Source of the DNA: Shigella phage Shfl2
Sequence record: HM035025
Length of the DNA stretch: 64,000 bases
Direction: 5' to 3' (one strand)
This document shows, one piece after another, positions 1-4,803 of this stretch (within the stretch, counting starts at the first letter, position 1; every line of letters starts with the position of its first letter). Made by a program: the position numbers and the translations under genes. The notes under the pieces were generated by a model that saw only the letters and a list, made by a program, of their open reading frames with translations, did not search any database and was not told where the DNA came from.

Positions 1-238
1 AGTTATCATAATGAAAATATAACATTGTACCAAAGAATGAAAATAATGAAATCGCTATAGTAAAACGAAGTTCACTCCAAACTTCTATTATATTTACTGT
101 GCCGTCAATGTTTAAAATAAGACAGTCAATTAACAATCCAAAAAGACTACCCGCAAGAGCTGCAGCCAACGCCACAGCAAAAATCAAAAATGACTCAGGA
201 AGCGAATATTTGACTTTATTTAGTTTTGGCTTTTGCAT
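1..238 (-). CDS. Membrane protein, N-terminal fragment; gene continues beyond window start
   Basis: Hand translation from ATG at 236-238 gives MQKPKLNKVKYSLPESFLIFAVALAAALAGSLFGLLIDCLIL..., two hydrophobic helices, no stop before position 1. Confidence 0.4.
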   Translation of the reverse strand, partial: MQKPKLNKVKYSLPESFLIFAVALAAALAGSLFGLLIDCLILNIDGTVNIIEVWSELRFTIAISLFSFFGTMLYFHYDN

Positions 239-612
239 CGTGATTCCTTAACAAATTTCATAATTTCATTAAATTCATACATATCAAGTTTAAGCTGATG
301 TTCCTTTTTAATCTTTTTACACTGTGCTTTCCAATCACGTACGCGTTTACGATAATGTCTTCCTTGATACCAGTATCCTACCCAATTTACGGGTACTAAT
401 AAAAGTGGAACTACCAATGGAAGAATTAGCATTAACACAAGTATTTCGCCAGAATCAATATCAGTCATAACATCTAAAACACCTCCAATAATCAATAGAA
501 TTACAAATGATATAAGTATAACAGGACCTATTAATACATCAGTAGAAATTATCTGACGCTTTAATTCATACTTCAAAGGTTTACTTGGAAGGTATAGTGA
601 TGGTTTTGACAT
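220..612 (-). CDS. Small membrane protein, 2 predicted TM helices with basic C-terminal tail (about 130 aa)
   Basis: Track ORF 220..633 begins with TTG; first ATG at 610-612 preceded by AGGA; hydrophobic stretches VLIGPVILISFVILLIIGGVL and ILVLMLILPLVVPLLLVPV. Confidence 0.5.
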   Translation of the reverse strand: MSKPSLYLPSKPLKYELKRQIISTDVLIGPVILISFVILLIIGGVLDVMTDIDSGEILVLMLILPLVVPLLLVPVNWVGYWYQGRHYRKRVRDWKAQCKKIKKEHQLKLDMYEFNEIMKFVKESRCKSQN

Positions 613-1183
613 ATTCTCTGCATTCCTTAACAAATTTTTCTAATAATAAATCGCTTTCAAAATTGGGATTTTCTACGAATTTATCAAAAAGATCATCAAC
701 AATATTCAAGATATTCCTTTTACTAAGAATACGTTTATTTTCATGCTTCGTTTCAGAGTCAACTATAAGAGTAAAGAAATATTTCTTTCCCTGAAATTTT
801 ACCGTAGTATCAATATAAAATAAATTTGACTTTTGTAAATTACGTTTAAACCATGCGTCGCTTAAACTATAAACACCGAGATAATCAAAATCGTCGTTTA
901 AATAACAAACTGACCATTCAGGAGAAACAAAATCAGTAAATTCAACGTCAAAATCACATGTTAATAAATGAATTGATTCAATACTGTTAATAAGTATTCC
1001 AGGACGTATTAAAGACTTTTTACCTCTAGAAAATCTTCCAGAAAGACTTTCATCAGTTTCATATGAAGAACCCCAATAATAATTACGTCCTTCTGCCATA
1101 CGTTTAAGAGCATTTAATAATTGATCTGGAACATCAACCTGTCTTTGGAACTCTTCAAACATTGAATTAAAATCACTTTGCAT
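581..1183 (-). CDS. Hypothetical protein, about 200 aa, soluble
   Basis: Track ORF 581..1189; second ATG at 1181-1183 has better AGGA spacing; 3' end overlaps downstream membrane-protein start by about 30 nt. Confidence 0.5.
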   Translation of the reverse strand: MQSDFNSMFEEFQRQVDVPDQLLNALKRMAEGRNYYWGSSYETDESLSGRFSRGKKSLIRPGILINSIESIHLLTCDFDVEFTDFVSPEWSVCYLNDDFDYLGVYSLSDAWFKRNLQKSNLFYIDTTVKFQGKKYFFTLIVDSETKHENKRILSKRNILNIVDDLFDKFVENPNFESDLLLEKFVKECREYVKTITIPSK

Positions 1184-1210
1184 TTTCATTCCTATTTACT
1201 CTAAGTAATA

Positions 1211-1224
1211 GGGGCCGAAGCCCC
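1211..1224 (-). terminator. GC-rich tetraloop hairpin GGGGC-CGAA-GCCCC, intercistronic
   Basis: Sequence read at 1211-1224; identical copies at 41132 and 62199. Confidence 0.4.
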
Positions 1225-1230
1225 TTATCA

Positions 1231-1824
1231 TTATTTCAGAGAATTAATATATTCCTGAACATCGGCAGAGGTAGTTTCAACCCCAGAAATATTACCATTA
1301 AAGGTTTCAACTCGAGCAAGTGTGTCTTCAATATCAACCTTAGTCAGTGCTGCAATTTCAACTACATCATCGGCAGTACTAATTCCGAGAGCATTTGCTG
1401 CACGAGTTTCACGGATATATTCCAATTTAATTGCAAGTTCTTGGCGAGCATCATCTAACTCAACTACTTTCTTGGCGATTTCAATTCGCATTTCAGCATA
1501 ACCATCAGCTTTAGTAGTCAACTGTTCAGCTGTTCGACGATATAGCAAACCGAGTTTAGCATGCATTGTTACATCTTGACCTTCGGAAAGAAGCTTGCGA
1601 ATTTCACGCTCTTTTGATTCGGCCTGCTTATTCTTTTCGACAATAAGTTCACGAATGCGTTTTTCTTCGTTAATAGATTTAACGGAAGCAGTTTTTAGGT
1701 CTTTAATCTTATCAAGTAGTTTTGCTGCCGCAGCAGTATACTGCTCTTCAACAGATAGATTTTTAGCCATAGCAGAACCAAGTTTAGTGCGAATAAACTC
1801 AACAATTTTCTTCAGTGTGTTCAT
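1231..1824 (-). CDS. Coiled-coil protein with PspA/IM30 (phage shock protein A)-like features, 197 aa
   Basis: Track ORF; ATG at 1822-1824 preceded by AGGAA; long heptad-rich helices; segments such as ARVETFNG and [18 protein letters not shown] resemble PspA helix patterns (recalled, unverified). Confidence 0.5.
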
Positions 1825-1867
1825 AGTATTTCCTTAGGTTAATTAAGATTTAAAATCCACGAGAGTA

Positions 1868-2044
1868 TTATACTCCGGATAGTTTGTAAACTATTTCAAC
1901 ATCGCCTTTTGCTGCTTTATAACCTTCAGCCCAAGATACAACCGAGTTTTTATCCGAAGATTCAAATTCTGGCATTGGGCTTTCGCCAATGTTCACACAA
2001 TATGTTTCTTCATTTTCGTCAAACCAAATAATTAAAGTAGTCAT
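1868..2044 (-). CDS. Small hypothetical protein, 58 aa
   Basis: Hand translation MTTLIIWFDENEETYCVNIGESPMPEFESSDKNSVVSWAEGYKAAKGDVEIVYKLSGV; GGAG RBS before ATG at 2042-2044; below the track size cutoff. Confidence 0.35.
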   Translation of the reverse strand: MTTLIIWFDENEETYCVNIGESPMPEFESSDKNSVVSWAEGYKAAKGDVEIVYKLSGV

Positions 2045-2113
2045 TTATTTCTCCGTTTTCTGTATTTGTTTTGATAAGTCTATAATAACACCGTCCTTGG
2101 TGTTTGTACACAA

Positions 2114-2377
2114 TTATTTCATATTATTGAAATATTCTTCTGCGATTTCATCGTTATCATGGTAAACTTTAGAAGACAGTTTAACATAACCTTCAGCAGT
2201 GAACATGTTAATCACAACCTTTACAGTATACCACTGACCGTCTTCATTACCCATTACTGCGTAAGTTTCAAACATCGGATGATCAGGACCGATAACTTTA
2301 ATATCATTCACCGTACGACCGAAATCTTCTGAAACACATTTCATAAAGAAGTTGAACAGTTCGCCGTAATTATCCAT
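2114..2377 (-). CDS. Hypothetical protein, about 87 aa
   Basis: Track ORF 2114..2389; internal ATG (MDNYGEL) has GGAG at good spacing. Confidence 0.45.
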   Translation of the reverse strand: MDNYGELFNFFMKCVSEDFGRTVNDIKVIGPDHPMFETYAVMGNEDGQWYTVKVVINMFTAEGYVKLSSKVYHDNDEIAEEYFNNMK

Positions 2378-2399
2378 TTCATTCTCCAAGTTGTTTTCT

Positions 2400-2465
2400 G
2401 TATCAGTAGTTGATAGTTGTATAATACCATGGAAGAACAGGGATGTAAACAGTTTTGTGAAAAAA
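2400..2465 (-). promoter_or_regulatory. T4 early (sigma70-like) promoter, GTTTACA -35 and TATTAT -10 on minus strand
   Basis: Reverse complement reads ...ctGTTTACAtccctgttcttccatggTATTATAcaac upstream of ORF starting near 2377. Confidence 0.45.
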
Positions 2466-2580
2466 AATTTTAAAGGTTTTGGGGAATTCTAGGGCAGAGA
2501 GGGGAAATCAAAGGATAGGATAATATATTATAAAGGGTAGAAACTAAATGATGTCTAGAGAGGCCTGGAAAGGCCTAGAT

Positions 2581-2610
2581 ACCAAAAATCCCTATCATTT
2601 AGATAGGGAT
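2581..2610 (-). terminator. Rho-independent terminator after IPIII-like gene
   Basis: 9-bp stem ATCCCTATC/GATAGGGAT with 5-nt loop, followed on minus strand by UUUUGG. Confidence 0.5.
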
Positions 2611-2616
2611 TTAAAA

Positions 2617-3183
2617 TTATTTACCCAGTTTAGTTATTATAGCTTCGGCAGCAGCTTTTAGCTTAGATGCAGTGTTAATACGATTTTTAATTTCAGTATA
2701 CGCATCGCCAAGAACATCAAGGCTATCTGAATAAACACTTACACTATTGCGTTCACTATTTGAAATAGAACCTTTAGTTTTACGATCAAAATCGGTGTAC
2801 ACGTCTTGAAGATCGCGGGCTGCCTTCTTTGCATCATCCAATGCATCAAGAGCTTTATTCAAAGCATTAACATATTTTTTAGTGTCAAACATATTCTTAG
2901 AAATTTTGACGGGTGCGCGTTCAGGAGTAGCTAAGGCAGATTTAGGAAGAACCTGTTTGCCAGATGCCAGTTTCTTAGAAATTTTAAAAAACGCTTTATT
3001 GAAATTATTTTCTTGACTCATCGTAAAAGAACTATTATCAATGTTATACATTTCAATAGCTTTAGCTTTCCACTTAAGAAAATCGCCCCGGTCTTTTGGG
3101 TCCAAGTGGAAGAATACTTTAGTAAGTTCTGCTTCAGATGGTAATTTTGCTGCTTCGGTTAAAAATTCGGCATAGGTTTTCAT
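2617..3183 (-). CDS. Internal head protein with capsid targeting sequence (IPIII-like), 188 aa
   Basis: N-terminus MKTYAEFLTE matches the T4 internal-protein CTS (MKTYQEFIAE, cleaved by gp21 after E); ATG at 3181-3183. Confidence 0.7.
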   Translation of the reverse strand: MKTYAEFLTEAAKLPSEAELTKVFFHLDPKDRGDFLKWKAKAIEMYNIDNSSFTMSQENNFNKAFFKISKKLASGKQVLPKSALATPERAPVKISKNMFDTKKYVNALNKALDALDDAKKAARDLQDVYTDFDRKTKGSISNSERNSVSVYSDSLDVLGDAYTEIKNRINTASKLKAAAEAIITKLGK

Positions 3184-3275
3184 TTAAAATCCTTGAAATA
3201 ATTTATCGGTCGGTTATTAATTATTTATTTATTACTTTGTTATTATCCGTAACAGCATTCTCTATGTGATTCAAA

Positions 3276-3305
3276 CTAAAAAGCCCCAACCTTTCGGTCG
3301 GGGCT
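3276..3305 (-). terminator. Rho-independent terminator at distal end of tRNA/stable-RNA locus
   Basis: Minus strand reads AGCCCCGACC-GAAA-GGUUGGGGCU followed by UUUUU (GNRA tetraloop). Confidence 0.6.
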
Positions 3306-3600
3306 AAGCCTTGCGGCAACCTTGTCGGGGTTCCACCTGCTAAGGCAAGTGTTTGTACGAAACGCCGGGATTCGAACCCGGTTATTAAGCAGTTGACGCT
3401 ACTCAATATTTTTAAAAGGCCATATCTCGACCATATCCGAACGTTCCGTCAAAAACGCTACTCGGCTTATGGCAAAGATATTTCCTCGAATCGATAATTC
3501 GGTGCGCCGTTTCTGCTGTGATAGTAAAGAATCAGAACACAGTAAAACTGTGGGAGAAACTATACTCCAGGGAACATCAGTCCGACGACTTACCGGTAGC
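3306..3600 (-). ncRNA. Putative small stable RNA(s), possibly equivalent to T4 rnaC/rnaD; boundaries uncertain
   Basis: GC-richer non-coding stretch between an ORF and the terminator; tRNA-like T-arm CCGGGTTCGAATCCCGG on minus strand near 3362-3378; motif GAGUAGCGU occurs twice. Confidence 0.3.
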
Positions 3601-3611
3601 GACCCGGCTTC

Positions 3612-3962
3612 TTAATATTCTTTTAAAGCATCAATATGTTCACGGCGTTTACGCCATAAATCAATTGCTTCATACGCGGATTCAACATTTCGAATTGGAC
3701 GGCATTTATATAAAGATTTGTGATTTTGATATTGTGTAGATAACGGAATTTTATCTAAAAGGTCTTTACGTTCAAAATATTCGTAACCATCTAAACCAAA
3801 TGAACGATTTTTGAGAAATTGCCAATGACCATATTCATTTTCAACATAAATATAATCTGCGTGCTGATAAAGCAAATTAATTATACGTTCAGAAATAACA
3901 GTATCATTATGATTAAAATAGAATGTTAAATCATGAACTACTAAATAAACATTACCTTTCAT
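3612..3962 (-). CDS. Hypothetical protein, 116 aa, between tRNA-Arg and stable-RNA region
   Basis: Track ORF 3612..4010 is TTG-initiated and would overlap tRNA-Arg; ATG at 3960-3962 preceded by GAGGAAAAT. Confidence 0.45.
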   Translation of the reverse strand: MKGNVYLVVHDLTFYFNHNDTVISERIINLLYQHADYIYVENEYGHWQFLKNRSFGLDGYEYFERKDLLDKIPLSTQYQNHKSLYKCRPIRNVESAYEAIDLWRKRREHIDALKEY

Positions 3963-3980
3963 ATTTTCCTCACTTATAAT

Positions 3981-4057
3981 TGGTCGAGACAGAAGGATTC
4001 TAACCTTCAACCCACGGATTAGAAGTCCGTTGCTCTATACAATTGAGCTATGCCTCG
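3981..4057 (-). tRNA. tRNA-Arg (anticodon UCU)
   Basis: Hand fold: acceptor CGAGGCA/TGTCTCG, anticodon stem ACGGA/TCCGT, loop CUUCUAA, encoded CCA; T-loop TTAGAAT is atypical. Confidence 0.7.
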
Positions 4058-4061
4058 TATT

Positions 4062-4136
4062 TGGCGGACGTGATAGGATTCGAACCTATAACCAATCGCT
4101 TAACAGGCGATCGCTCTGCCATTGAGCTACACATCC
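4062..4136 (-). tRNA. tRNA-Asn (anticodon GUU)
   Basis: Hand fold: acceptor GGATGTG/CACGTCC, anticodon stem ATCGC/GCGAT, loop CUGUUAA, T-loop TTCGAAT, encoded CCA. Confidence 0.8.
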
Positions 4137-4140
4137 AAAT

Positions 4141-4227
4141 TGGTGGGGAGTGATGGAGTCGAACCACCCGAGTCGCAATGACAATGGATTTACAGTCCAC
4201 ACCGCTACCTCTACGGGATAACTCCCC
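4141..4227 (-). tRNA. tRNA-Tyr (anticodon GUA), long variable arm
   Basis: Hand fold: acceptor GGGGAGT/ACTCCCC, anticodon loop CUGUAAA, long variable arm typical of bacterial-type Tyr, T-loop TTCGACT, encoded CCA. Confidence 0.75.
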
Positions 4228-4236
4228 AAATTAATT

Positions 4237-4311
4237 TGGTGGCCCTGGGTGGAATTGAACCACCATCTGGCGATTATGAGTCGCTTGCTTGAACCTTCCA
4301 GCTACAGGGCC
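4237..4311 (-). tRNA. tRNA with CAU anticodon, probably Ile (lysidine-type) as in T4 tRNA-Ile; Met not excluded
   Basis: Hand fold: acceptor GGCCCTG/CAGGGCC, anticodon loop CUCAUAA, encoded CCA; position corresponds to T4 tRNA-Ile. Confidence 0.7.
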
Positions 4312-4312
4312 T

Positions 4313-4388
4313 TGGTGCTGATTGACGGAATCGAACCGCCGACGTCCTCATTACAAGTGAGGTGCTCTACCTACTGAGCTAAATCAGC
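4313..4388 (-). tRNA. tRNA-Thr (anticodon UGU)
   Basis: Hand fold: acceptor GCTGATT/AATCAGC, anticodon stem CCTCA/TGAGG, loop CUUGUAA, encoded CCA. Confidence 0.8.
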
Positions 4389-4390
4389 AA

Positions 4391-4477
4391 CGGAGGCGAT
4401 AGGATTTGAACCTATGAGTCGCCGGAGCGACTGCCGGTTTTCAAGACCGGTGCATTAAACCACTCTGCCACGCCTCC
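4391..4477 (-). tRNA. tRNA-Ser (anticodon UGA), long variable arm
   Basis: Hand fold: acceptor GGAGGCG/CGCCTCC, anticodon stem CCGGT/ACCGG, loop CUUGAAA, T-loop TTCAAAT; no encoded CCA. Confidence 0.8.
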
Positions 4478-4479
4478 AG

Positions 4480-4553
4480 TCTCCGTGGCAGGATTTGAAC
4501 CTACGACATTCTGCTCCCAAAGCAGACGCTCTACCAAACTGAGCTACACGGAG
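4480..4553 (-). tRNA. tRNA-Pro (anticodon UGG)
   Basis: Hand fold: acceptor CTCCGTG/CACGGAG, anticodon stem TCTGC/GCAGA, loop UUUGGGA, T-loop TTCAAAT; no encoded CCA. Confidence 0.8.
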
Positions 4554-4563
4554 TAAATTAAAT

Positions 4564-4637
<74 letters not shown>

Positions 4638-4642
4638 AAATT

Positions 4643-4729
4643 TGGTGCGAGAAGTGGGACTCGAACCCACAAGGAAATCATTCCGCAGCATTTTAAGTGC
4701 TGTGCCTTTACCAATTTGGCCATTCTCGC
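4643..4729 (-). tRNA. tRNA-Leu (anticodon UAA), long variable arm
   Basis: Hand fold: acceptor GCGAGAA/TTCTCGC, anticodon stem CAGCA/TGCTG, loop CUUAAAA, T-loop TTCGAGT, encoded CCA. Confidence 0.8.
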
Positions 4730-4730
4730 G

Positions 4731-4803
4731 CTGGGAATAAAGGACTCGAACCTTTGCATCCTGGAATCAAAATCCAGTGCCTTACCAACTTGGCTAATTC
4801 CCA
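4731..4803 (-). tRNA. tRNA-Gln (anticodon UUG)
   Basis: Hand fold: acceptor TGGGAAT/ATTCCCA, anticodon stem CTGGA/TCCAG, loop UUUUGAU, T-loop TTCGAGT; no encoded CCA; abuts tRNA-Leu as in the T4 Gln-Leu pair. Confidence 0.8.

What the first reader, a model, noticed from the sequence alone, without database searches (positions are those of the whole stretch)
1..2400. Non-T4 accessory module: PspA/IM30-like protein with small membrane proteins and a 200-aa partner
In T4 this map position (left of the IPIII and tRNA loci) holds denV, ipII, e and e.1-e.8. Here it holds a minus-strand array instead: a 197-aa coiled-coil protein with PspA/IM30-like helices, a 200-aa soluble protein whose 3' end overlaps a 2-TM membrane protein with a basic tail, a second membrane protein running off the window, and two small ORFs, behind early-type promoters. 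A phage-encoded PspA/ESCRT-III-like membrane-remodelling protein next to small membrane proteins suggests membrane protection, superinfection exclusion, or countering membrane-damaging abortive-infection effectors. I do not recognise any of these proteins from T4.
Basis: partly seen in the sequence, partly recalled or inferred. Interest (0 to 1): 0.7.

Follow-up and report, generated by a model that had tools for sequence, protein, structure and literature searches.

The report
T4 genes e.3–e.8, PspA-like e.6
This stretch is not a foreign module but the ordinary phage T4 genes e.3 to e.8, and one of them (e.6) is a very divergent relative of the bacterial membrane-repair protein PspA, a resemblance already noted in print but never tested experimentally.

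Summary
The ORFs exist as described, but the premise "non-T4" is wrong. Window 3-1840 and 2114-2608 are collinear with T4 at 94-95% DNA identity. The proteins are T4 e.3 (82%, cut by the window edge), e.4 (92%), e.5 (97%), e.6 (196/197) and e.8 (86/87). Only the 58-aa ORF is non-T4; it replaces e.7.

A 2021 genome announcement already reported e.6-PspA similarity by HHpred, so this is not new. No functional study was found.

e.6 occurs in 1105 phage records and in varied neighbourhoods. e.5 and e.4 occur in 642 each, so the "module" is loose.

Most likely role (inferred): an early phage-made PspA-type protein that keeps the inner membrane sealed.

The parts
1..238 (-). 5' part of gene e.3 (79 of 120 codons; runs off the window). 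Small membrane protein.
   Evidence: 65/79 identical to T4 e.3 NP_049739. Hydrophobic segments at 19-37 and 33-51. The start overlaps the e.4 stop by 19 nt, as in T4.
220..612 (-). Gene e.4: 130-aa protein with 2 TM segments and a basic C-terminal tail.
   Evidence: 120/130 identical to T4 e.4. phrog_2604. TM segments 31-49 and 57-75, net charge +8. Weak full-length similarity to e.3 (E 0.002). Found in 642 phage records.
581..1189 (-). Gene e.5: 202-aa soluble protein of unknown fold. It overlaps e.4 by 32 nt.
1208..1228 (-). GGGGC-UUCG-GCCCC hairpin between e.6 and e.5.
   Evidence: Read directly. Found by the terminator scan. RNA fold -13.9 kcal/mol, z -2.3. Annotated as stem_loop in T4 L13089 and as a putative terminator in phage G4498. 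The minus-strand tail is T-poor, so it is more likely an RNA-stabilising or attenuating hairpin than a strong terminator.
1231..1824 (-). Gene e.6: 197-aa divergent PspA/IM30 (ESCRT-III superfamily) homologue.
   Evidence: 196/197 identical to T4 e.6. phrog_1203. AF2 helices 2-22, 25-80, 86-145, 151-162, 166-173 and 186-196. Vipp1 tops Foldseek. Profile against PDB sequences. hhalign against PspA. Pfam PF04012 on relatives P0061 and P0062. HHpred report in PMC7862958.
1868..2044 (-). 58-aa acidic ORF occupying the slot of T4 e.7 (cassette replacement).
   Evidence: No similarity to T4 e.7. phrog_5461. Present in 283 phage records. DNA similarity to T4 breaks at 1841-2113.
2114..2377 (-). Gene e.8: 87-aa acidic soluble protein.
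   Evidence: 86/87 identical to T4 e.8. phrog_2678.
2421..2449 (-). T4 early-type promoter upstream of e.8 (TTTACA, 17 nt, TATTAT, TG-extended).
   Evidence: Best promoter match in the scan, 10/12. Nearly identical in T4, where L13089 annotates -35/-10 signals.

Best explanation
Window 1-2450 is the ordinary T4 e.3-e.8 early-gene block of a Tequatrovirus. e.7 is swapped for an unrelated 58-aa ORF.

Its 197-aa product, e.6, is a highly diverged, phage-borne branch of the PspA/IM30/Vipp1 (ESCRT-III superfamily) family. It has an N-terminal amphipathic helix, a long alpha1/alpha2-3 hairpin and short C-terminal helices.

Inferred mechanism:
- e.6 is transcribed from the early promoter upstream of e.8.
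- It binds the cytoplasmic face of the inner membrane through the N-terminal helix.
- It polymerises like PspA and so limits proton leakage.
- It would act at a time when the membrane is stressed by DNA injection, superinfection, holin accumulation or host membrane toxins, and when T4's shut-off of host transcription prevents the cell from inducing its own psp operon.

e.5, e.4 and e.3 are a translationally coupled set of overlapping genes: a soluble protein plus two small paralogous membrane proteins. They are narrower in distribution and are neighbours of e.6, not obligate partners.

Shown here: gene identities, homology to PspA/Vipp1 and distribution. Inferred: membrane binding, polymerisation and the physiological role.
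For: Identity with T4:
- Searches give the protein and DNA identities.
- One search shows the T4 gene order.
- (L13089, msp1-msp8) annotates early promoters.

PspA homology:
- The AF2 topology puts alpha1 at 25-80 and alpha2/3 at 86-145.
- Foldseek PDB ranks 1-7 are all Vipp1 (probability 1.00, E 2.8e-3 to 1.5e-2). 6zvs_A gives rmsd 3.0 A over 122 columns. Archaeal ESCRT-III CdvB2 and PspA 4whe follow.
- The A2 family profile against 177,635 PDB sequences has Vipp1/PspA as its top eight hits, E 7.8e-5 to 1e-3, with query 1-146 aligned to target 1-147.
- hhalign of A2 against PspA+Vipp1 gives probability 91.6%, E 8.1e-7, and 168 columns running from residue 1 to the ARVETF/ARFESF motif.
- Family members P0062 (39.0 bits) and P0061 (35.1 bits) exceed the PF04012 gathering score of 33.9, aligned 6-146 to profile positions 2-143.
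- Both are full-length e.6 relatives, at E 5.8e-20 and 2.8e-21 to the e.6 profile. P0062 lies next to uvsX and gene-41-like genes.
- The hydrophobic moment of the N-terminal helix is 0.45, against 0.49 for PspA.
- Independent HHpred report: 99.9% to 4WHE_A for an e.6 homologue (PMC7862958).

Early expression: promoter match at 2449..2421.

Plausibility of a protective role: PspA overexpression largely reverses killing by the membrane toxin Hok (PMC7821729).
Against: - T4/window e.6 has no Pfam or NCBIfam hit on its own and no single-sequence PDB hit.
- No Foldseek hit reaches E 0.001.
- The N-terminal helix and residues 162-184 have pLDDT below 50.
- The amphipathicity of the N-terminal helix is not significant against shuffles (7% of shuffles reach it).
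- The PspA comparison profile was shallow: 8 sequences, 7 of them at least 86% alike.
- HMMER reports high compositional bias for the Vipp1 matches.
- No experiment on e.6 was found.
- From my own knowledge of T4 genetics, large deletions between e and the tRNA genes are viable, so any role is conditional.
Confidence: 0.5

Rival explanations
1. Counter-defence specialist. e.6 exists mainly to neutralise host abortive-infection effectors that kill by depolarising or permeabilising the inner membrane, such as Hok-type type I toxins released after host shut-off, RexB-like channels, or TM effectors of CBASS or retrons. On this reading it does not serve general membrane housekeeping during infection.
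For: The PspA-type fold. Early promoter. The gene lies in a hyperplastic accessory region with cassette swaps next door. PspA overexpression largely reverses Hok killing (PMC7821729). hok/sok exclusion of T4 is established knowledge, recalled by me and not tested here.
Against: e.6 is unusually conserved and widespread for an anti-defence gene: 1105 records across Escherichia, Klebsiella, Aeromonas, Serratia, Yersinia and other phages, mostly full length. That fits a general infection function better. No defence-related family hit was found. No experimental link exists.
Confidence: 0.2
2. Host-Psp mimic or antagonist. e.6 co-assembles with or competes against host PspA, or binds PspF or PspBC. 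In that way it would reprogramme or silence the host phage-shock response without protecting the membrane itself.
For: Homology extends through the region that in E. coli PspA includes the PspF-interacting N-terminal helices. The alignment runs from residue 1.
Against: Identity to PspA is only about 14%, so specific partner surfaces are unlikely to be preserved. The family also occurs in Aeromonas and other phages whose hosts differ. T4 shuts off host transcription anyway (established knowledge), which makes control of PspF redundant.
Confidence: 0.1
3. Obligate module. e.6 works only together with the adjacent e.5/e.4/e.3 proteins. The small membrane proteins would act as PspB/PspC-like anchors or sensors.
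For: Adjacency and the same strand in T4-type phages. Citrobacter phage Merlin has an analogous order: e.6, a 214-aa soluble protein, a 140-aa 2-TM protein and a 122-aa TM protein. The last of these weakly matches the e.3 PHROG at E 0.004.
Against: - A hairpin separates e.6 from e.5.
- e.5 and e.4 are found in 642 records against 1105 for e.6.
- In RB43, Aeromonas phage AhMtk13a and metagenomic contigs the e.6 neighbours are unrelated, and in the RB43 and Aeromonas loci none has a predicted TM segment.
- e.4 has no PspB or PspC Pfam match.
Confidence: 0.12
4. Generic coiled coil. The PspA resemblance is a compositional and geometric artefact of a long helical hairpin, and e.6 does something unrelated to membranes.
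Against: Four independent methods converge on Vipp1/PspA specifically and in the same register from residue 1, as does a published HHpred result. Two relatives pass Pfam's curated threshold.
Confidence: 0.08

Closest known systems
Bacteriophage T4 genes e.3, e.4, e.5, e.6, e.8 (NC_000866; originally msp6-msp1 in GenBank L13089)
   Same: Same genes, order, strand, overlaps, hairpin and early promoter. Protein identity is 82-99.5% and DNA identity 94-95%.
   Different: T4 e.7 (111 aa) is replaced by an unrelated 58-aa ORF. To the right of the e.8 promoter region the window carries an extra 188-aa gene that T4 lacks there.
PspA / IM30 (Vipp1) family, Pfam PF04012: E. coli PspA (PDB 4WHE) and Synechocystis Vipp1 (7O3W, 6ZVR)
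   Same: N-terminal helix followed by a hairpin of two helices of about 56-60 residues, then shorter C-terminal helices. The alignment stays in register from residue 1 to about 176. Some e.6-family members pass the Pfam threshold.
   Different: Identity is about 14%. e.6 itself is below all Pfam and NCBIfam thresholds. It is shorter, at 197 aa against 222-267 aa. It is phage-encoded with no pspF/pspBC context. Oligomerisation and membrane binding are untested.
Eukaryotic and archaeal ESCRT-III (Snf7, CHMP1B, CdvB2)
   Different: These are weaker matches than Vipp1. There is no detectable sequence relation, and no Vps4 or MIM-type partner is evident.
Klebsiella phage Metamorpho gp163 (PMC7862958)
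   Same: It is described as a T4 e.6 homologue with a 99.9% HHpred alignment to PspA 4WHE_A. That is the same inference as the one reached here.
   Different: It is only a one-sentence bioinformatic remark. The paper offers no function, structure or distribution analysis.

Membership tests
T4 e-region gene set (e.3-e.8) | Protein identity and collinear gene order with T4 NC_000866 67.9-70.6 kb | tested here: met
   e.6 196/197, e.5 195/202, e.4 120/130, e.8 86/87 and e.3 65/79. DNA identity 94-95%. The exception is the e.7 slot, which holds an unrelated 58-aa ORF.
PspA/IM30 (Pfam PF04012) | The protein itself scores above the Pfam gathering threshold (33.9 bits) | tested here: not met
   No PF04012 hit for window/T4 e.6 even at E<=10. 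No NCBIfam hit either.
PspA/IM30 (Pfam PF04012) | Homology demonstrable by profile methods or through intermediate sequences | tested here: met
   Relatives P0062 (39.0 bits) and P0061 (35.1 bits) pass the threshold. They match the e.6 profile at E 5.8e-20 and 2.8e-21. The family profile against PDB has Vipp1/PspA as its top eight hits, E 7.8e-5 to 1e-3. hhalign gives E 8.1e-7, probability 91.6%. Published HHpred result: 99.9%.
PspA/Vipp1/ESCRT-III superfamily | Long alpha1 / alpha2-3 helical hairpin core | tested here: met
   [not shown]
PspA/Vipp1 (bacterial branch) | N-terminal amphipathic membrane-binding helix alpha0 | tested here: inconclusive
   Helix 2-22 is predicted, but with pLDDT about 40. 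Its hydrophobic moment is 0.45, against 0.49 for PspA and 0.61 for Vipp1, but only z 1.6 against shuffles.
PspA/Vipp1/ESCRT-III superfamily | C-terminal alpha4/alpha5 helices that pack on neighbouring protomers | tested here: inconclusive
   Short helices are predicted at 151-162, 166-173 and 186-196, but residues 162-184 have pLDDT below 50. The conserved C-terminal Y192/S195/L196 hints at a functional tail.
PspA/Vipp1/ESCRT-III superfamily | Self-assembly into rings, rods or filaments on membranes | not testable with these tools
   Needs purified protein with EM and liposome assays, or multimer modelling, which is not available here.
Enterobacterial Psp system | Partner genes pspF, pspB and pspC next to the PspA gene | tested here: not met
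   The neighbours are e.5, e.4, e.3, e.8 and the 58-aa ORF. Neither e.4, e.5, e.8 nor the 58-aa ORF matches PspB or PspC models. e.3 was not scanned against Pfam. Compare the E. coli pspFABCDE locus. This feature is not required for the wider family.

The most novel reading that the evidence does not exclude
T4-like phages carry their own functional ESCRT-III/PspA-type membrane-remodelling polymer, e.6. It is made early. It would keep the infected cell's inner membrane energised and would blunt membrane-depolarising abortive-infection toxins. It might act together with the small e.3/e.4-type membrane proteins in some lineages. If so, it would be the first functionally defined virus-encoded bacterial PspA.
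Probability: 0.35. Interest if true: 0.6.

Novelty: already known. Interest (0 to 1): 0.3.

Why it matters
As a discovery it does not stand. The genes are T4's own e.3-e.8, sequenced in 1993, and the e.6-PspA resemblance was published in 2021.

What remains of value is a well-defined open question in the best-studied phage: why do more than a thousand sequenced T4-like phages keep a PspA/ESCRT-III-superfamily gene? A phage-made membrane-repair polymer would bear on several problems:
- how infected cells keep their proton-motive force after host shut-off;
- the timing of lysis and lysis inhibition;
- how phages survive membrane-targeting abortive-infection systems.

The question can be tested directly with a T4 e.6 knockout and purified protein.

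Tried and rejected
- Pfam, NCBIfam and single-sequence PDB searches of e.6 alone gave only chance-level coiled-coil hits or nothing.
- The first, shallow family profile (A1) gave Vipp1 only at E 0.6-5. Adding distant members from the 1.84-billion-protein scan was needed.
- The homologue search with E. coli PspA returned only relatives of at least 86% identity. The PspA profile used for hhalign was therefore thin. I added a Vipp1 fragment copied from the HMMER output.
- I tested whether the gene after a distant e.6 homologue is an e.5 relative. It is not.
Only the first 12 residues match.
- Literature searches for functional work on e.6 or phage-encoded PspA found only the Metamorpho note.
Full report
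**1. What is in the sequence**

The minus strand of window 1-2450 carries these ORFs:
- an ORF that starts at 238 and runs off the left edge;
- a 130-aa ORF at 220..612, taking the ATG start;
- a 202-aa ORF at 581..1189 that overlaps the 130-aa ORF by 32 nt;
- a GGGGC-UUCG-GCCCC hairpin at 1208..1228;
- a 197-aa ORF at 1231..1824;
- a 58-aa ORF at 1868..2044;
- an 87-aa ORF at 2114..2377.

Hydropathy shows two hydrophobic segments (31-49, 57-75) and a net charge of +8 in the 130-aa protein. The truncated ORF also has hydrophobic segments. The other proteins have none.

The best sigma-70/T4-early-type promoter match in the region lies at 2449..2421, just upstream of the 87-aa ORF (TTTACA, 17 nt, TATTAT, with TG).

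**2. The region is T4, not non-T4**

Megablast of window 1-4500 finds 1023 phage records, almost all Tequatrovirus-type. Of these, 205 cover at least 80% of the query.

In annotated relatives the block lies directly right of e (lysozyme) and nudE. In T4 itself the order is e, nudE, e.2, e.3, e.4, e.5, e.6, e.7, e.8, rnaC, rnaD, tRNAs.

Direct comparison with T4 gives:

| Window ORF | T4 gene | Identity |
|---|---|---|
| 197 aa | e.6 | 196/197 |
| 202 aa | e.5 | 195/202 |
| 130 aa | e.4 | 120/130 |
| 87 aa | e.8 | 86/87 |
| edge fragment | e.3 | 65/79 |

At the DNA level, window 3-1840 matches T4 at 95.4% and window 2114-2608 at 94.1%.

Only the 58-aa ORF is foreign to T4. It replaces the 111-aa e.7 and is itself present in 283 phage records.

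The T4 block was deposited in 1993 as msp1-msp8, with early promoters and the stem-loop annotated (L13089).

The title and premise of the finding are therefore wrong. All hit PHROGs of unknown function.

**3. Is e.6 PspA/IM30-like?**

On its own, e.6 hits nothing meaningful in Pfam, NCBIfam or PDB sequences.

Its family is small and uniform. A profile scan of 1.84 billion representative proteins found 45 representatives. The full-length ones are about 195-209 aa and the rest are shorter fragments. No ordinary PspA appeared among them at E<=0.001. Three distant members were traced, and two lie in phage-like contigs:
- P0062 sits beside uvsX and gene-41-like genes.
- P0069 sits beside NUDIX, thymidylate synthase, a glycyl-radical gene and a peptidase.
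- The contig of P0083 has no recognisable family hits.

AlphaFold2 with a 26-sequence alignment gives mean pLDDT 73. The predicted helices are 2-22, 25-80, 86-145, 151-162, 166-173 and 186-196. Confidence is highest in the 25-145 hairpin. That is the alpha0 + alpha1/alpha2-3 hairpin + alpha4/5 layout of PspA/Vipp1.

Evidence for the relationship:
- Foldseek against PDB ranks seven Vipp1 chains first (E 2.8e-3 to 1.5e-2, probability 1.00). Archaeal ESCRT-III CdvB2 and E. coli PspA 4WHE appear lower in the list. The hairpin superposes on 6zvs_A at 3.0 A over 122 columns.
- A deeper family profile (A2, 39 sequences down to 18% identity) was searched against all PDB sequences. Its top eight hits are all Vipp1/PspA entries, at E 7.8e-5 to 1e-3, aligned from residue 1 to about 146.
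- hhalign of A2 against a PspA+Vipp1 alignment gives probability 91.6% and E 8.1e-7. The 168 aligned columns run from the N-terminus to the ARVETF/ARFESF motif.
- Scanning every family member against Pfam shows five members hitting PF04012. P0062 (39.0 bits) and P0061 (35.1 bits) are above the gathering score of 33.9.
- Independently, a genome announcement reports a 99.9% HHpred alignment of a T4 e.6 homologue with PspA 4WHE_A (PMC7862958).

Evidence against:
- No Foldseek hit is below E 0.001.
- The N-terminal helix is predicted with low confidence, and its hydrophobic moment is not significant against shuffles (0.45, against 0.49 for PspA).

I conclude that e.6 is a true but very divergent member of the PspA/IM30 superfamily, with about 0.9 confidence. 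Formal Pfam membership is not met by the T4 protein itself.

**4. Is there a module?**

e.6 occurs in 1105 of 50,697 phage records, in phages of Escherichia, Klebsiella, Shigella, Aeromonas, Enterobacter, Yersinia, Citrobacter, Serratia and others. For scale, 1440 records have a gp23 at least 60% identical to the window's.

e.5 and e.4 each occur in 642 records, limited to Tequatrovirus- and Mosigvirus-type phages.

The context of e.6 differs between phages:
- In RB43 it lies between nrdD and nrdG.
- In Aeromonas phage AhMtk13a it lies after a glutaredoxin gene, with no TM neighbours.
- In a metagenomic T4-like contig it lies near uvsX and gene 41, followed by an unrelated TM protein.
- In Citrobacter phage Merlin the arrangement resembles T4: e.6, a 214-aa soluble protein, a 140-aa 2-TM protein and a 122-aa TM protein. 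The last weakly matches the e.3 PHROG at E 0.004.

e.3 and e.4 look like weak paralogues.

Within the window a stable hairpin separates e.6 from e.5, whereas e.5, e.4 and e.3 overlap one another.

My reading is that e.8, the 58-aa ORF and e.6 form the promoter-proximal part of an early transcript. e.5-e.4-e.3 form a coupled set with a narrower distribution. e.6 does not depend on them in general.

**5. Mechanism**

Shown here: homology to PspA/Vipp1, an early-type promoter, and wide conservation.

Inferred from what the family does: PspA binds stressed membranes through its N-terminal helix, oligomerises and reduces proton leakage. This is established knowledge of the Psp response. In addition, PspA overexpression largely reverses Hok killing (PMC7821729).

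T4 shuts off host transcription (established knowledge), so an infected cell cannot induce its own psp operon. A phage-encoded, early-expressed PspA analogue would fill that gap during several stresses: DNA injection, superinfection, holin build-up, or attack by membrane-depolarising host toxins.

Rivals are a dedicated anti-abortive-infection role, mimicry of host PspA, an obligate e.6-e.5-e.4-e.3 complex, and a coincidental coiled coil. They are weighed in the rival list. None can be settled without experiments.

**6. Novelty and verdict**

The genes are T4's own, and the e.6-PspA similarity is already in the literature. I found no functional study in the searchable library.

The finding as written, a non-T4 accessory module, is refuted. 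Its structural hunch is confirmed but not new. What remains is a clear, testable question about a conserved phage PspA-like protein.

Interest 0.3; novelty class: already known.

Noticed in passing
window 1841-2113: Cassette swap relative to T4. The 111-aa e.7 is replaced by an unrelated acidic 58-aa ORF (phrog_5461, present in 283 phage records). The flanks stay 94-95% identical to T4. The T4 promoter-like GTTTACA box just upstream of e.6 is retained, but the -10 region differs.
   Followed up: partly
window 2609-3274 (ORF 2617..3183, minus strand): This segment has no counterpart at this position in T4. It carries a 188-aa gene whose first 12 residues (MKTYAEFLTEAA) match the capsid-targeting N-terminus of T4 IPIII, while the rest is unrelated (phrog_2280). 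It has its own hairpin plus T-run at 2586-2612.
   Followed up: partly
window 3275-3612: 89.8% DNA match to the T4 segment that holds the small stable RNAs rnaC and rnaD (species 1 and 2 RNAs). A strong terminator-like hairpin lies at 3305-3282.
   Followed up: no
window 3981-4803: The window has ten tandem tRNA genes: Arg, Asn, Tyr, Met(cat), Thr, Ser, Pro, Gly, Leu and Gln. T4 has eight, and the window has no segB homing-endonuclease gene. The 'Met(cat)' gene sits where T4 has tRNA-Ile and may be its counterpart. A 132-aa ORF (3612..4010, phrog_3355) overlaps tRNA-Arg if its TTG start is used, so the real start is probably further downstream.
   Followed up: no
L009 (RB43, NC_007023) 2855-3447: In the RB43 record the e.6 homologue is split by a frameshift. 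The N-terminal part (MIKKIFSFLNNKVETV...) is in a different frame, and only the C-terminal 97 codons are annotated. This is either a sequencing error or a pseudogene.
   Followed up: partly
window 1-612; L008 4289-5076: e.3 and e.4 appear to be weak paralogues: 21% identity over their full length, E 0.002, with cross-hits between their PHROGs. Citrobacter phage Merlin has two small TM proteins in the equivalent position downstream of its e.6, one weakly matching the e.3 PHROG.
   Followed up: partly
[not shown]
   Followed up: partly
L001 (JLBYU22) and many GenBank records: Public annotations of these genes look like propagated errors. e.6 is labelled 'host specificity protein', e.5 'phosphoserine phosphatase' and e.4 'sulfurtransferase'. 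No family search here supports any of these labels.
   Followed up: partly
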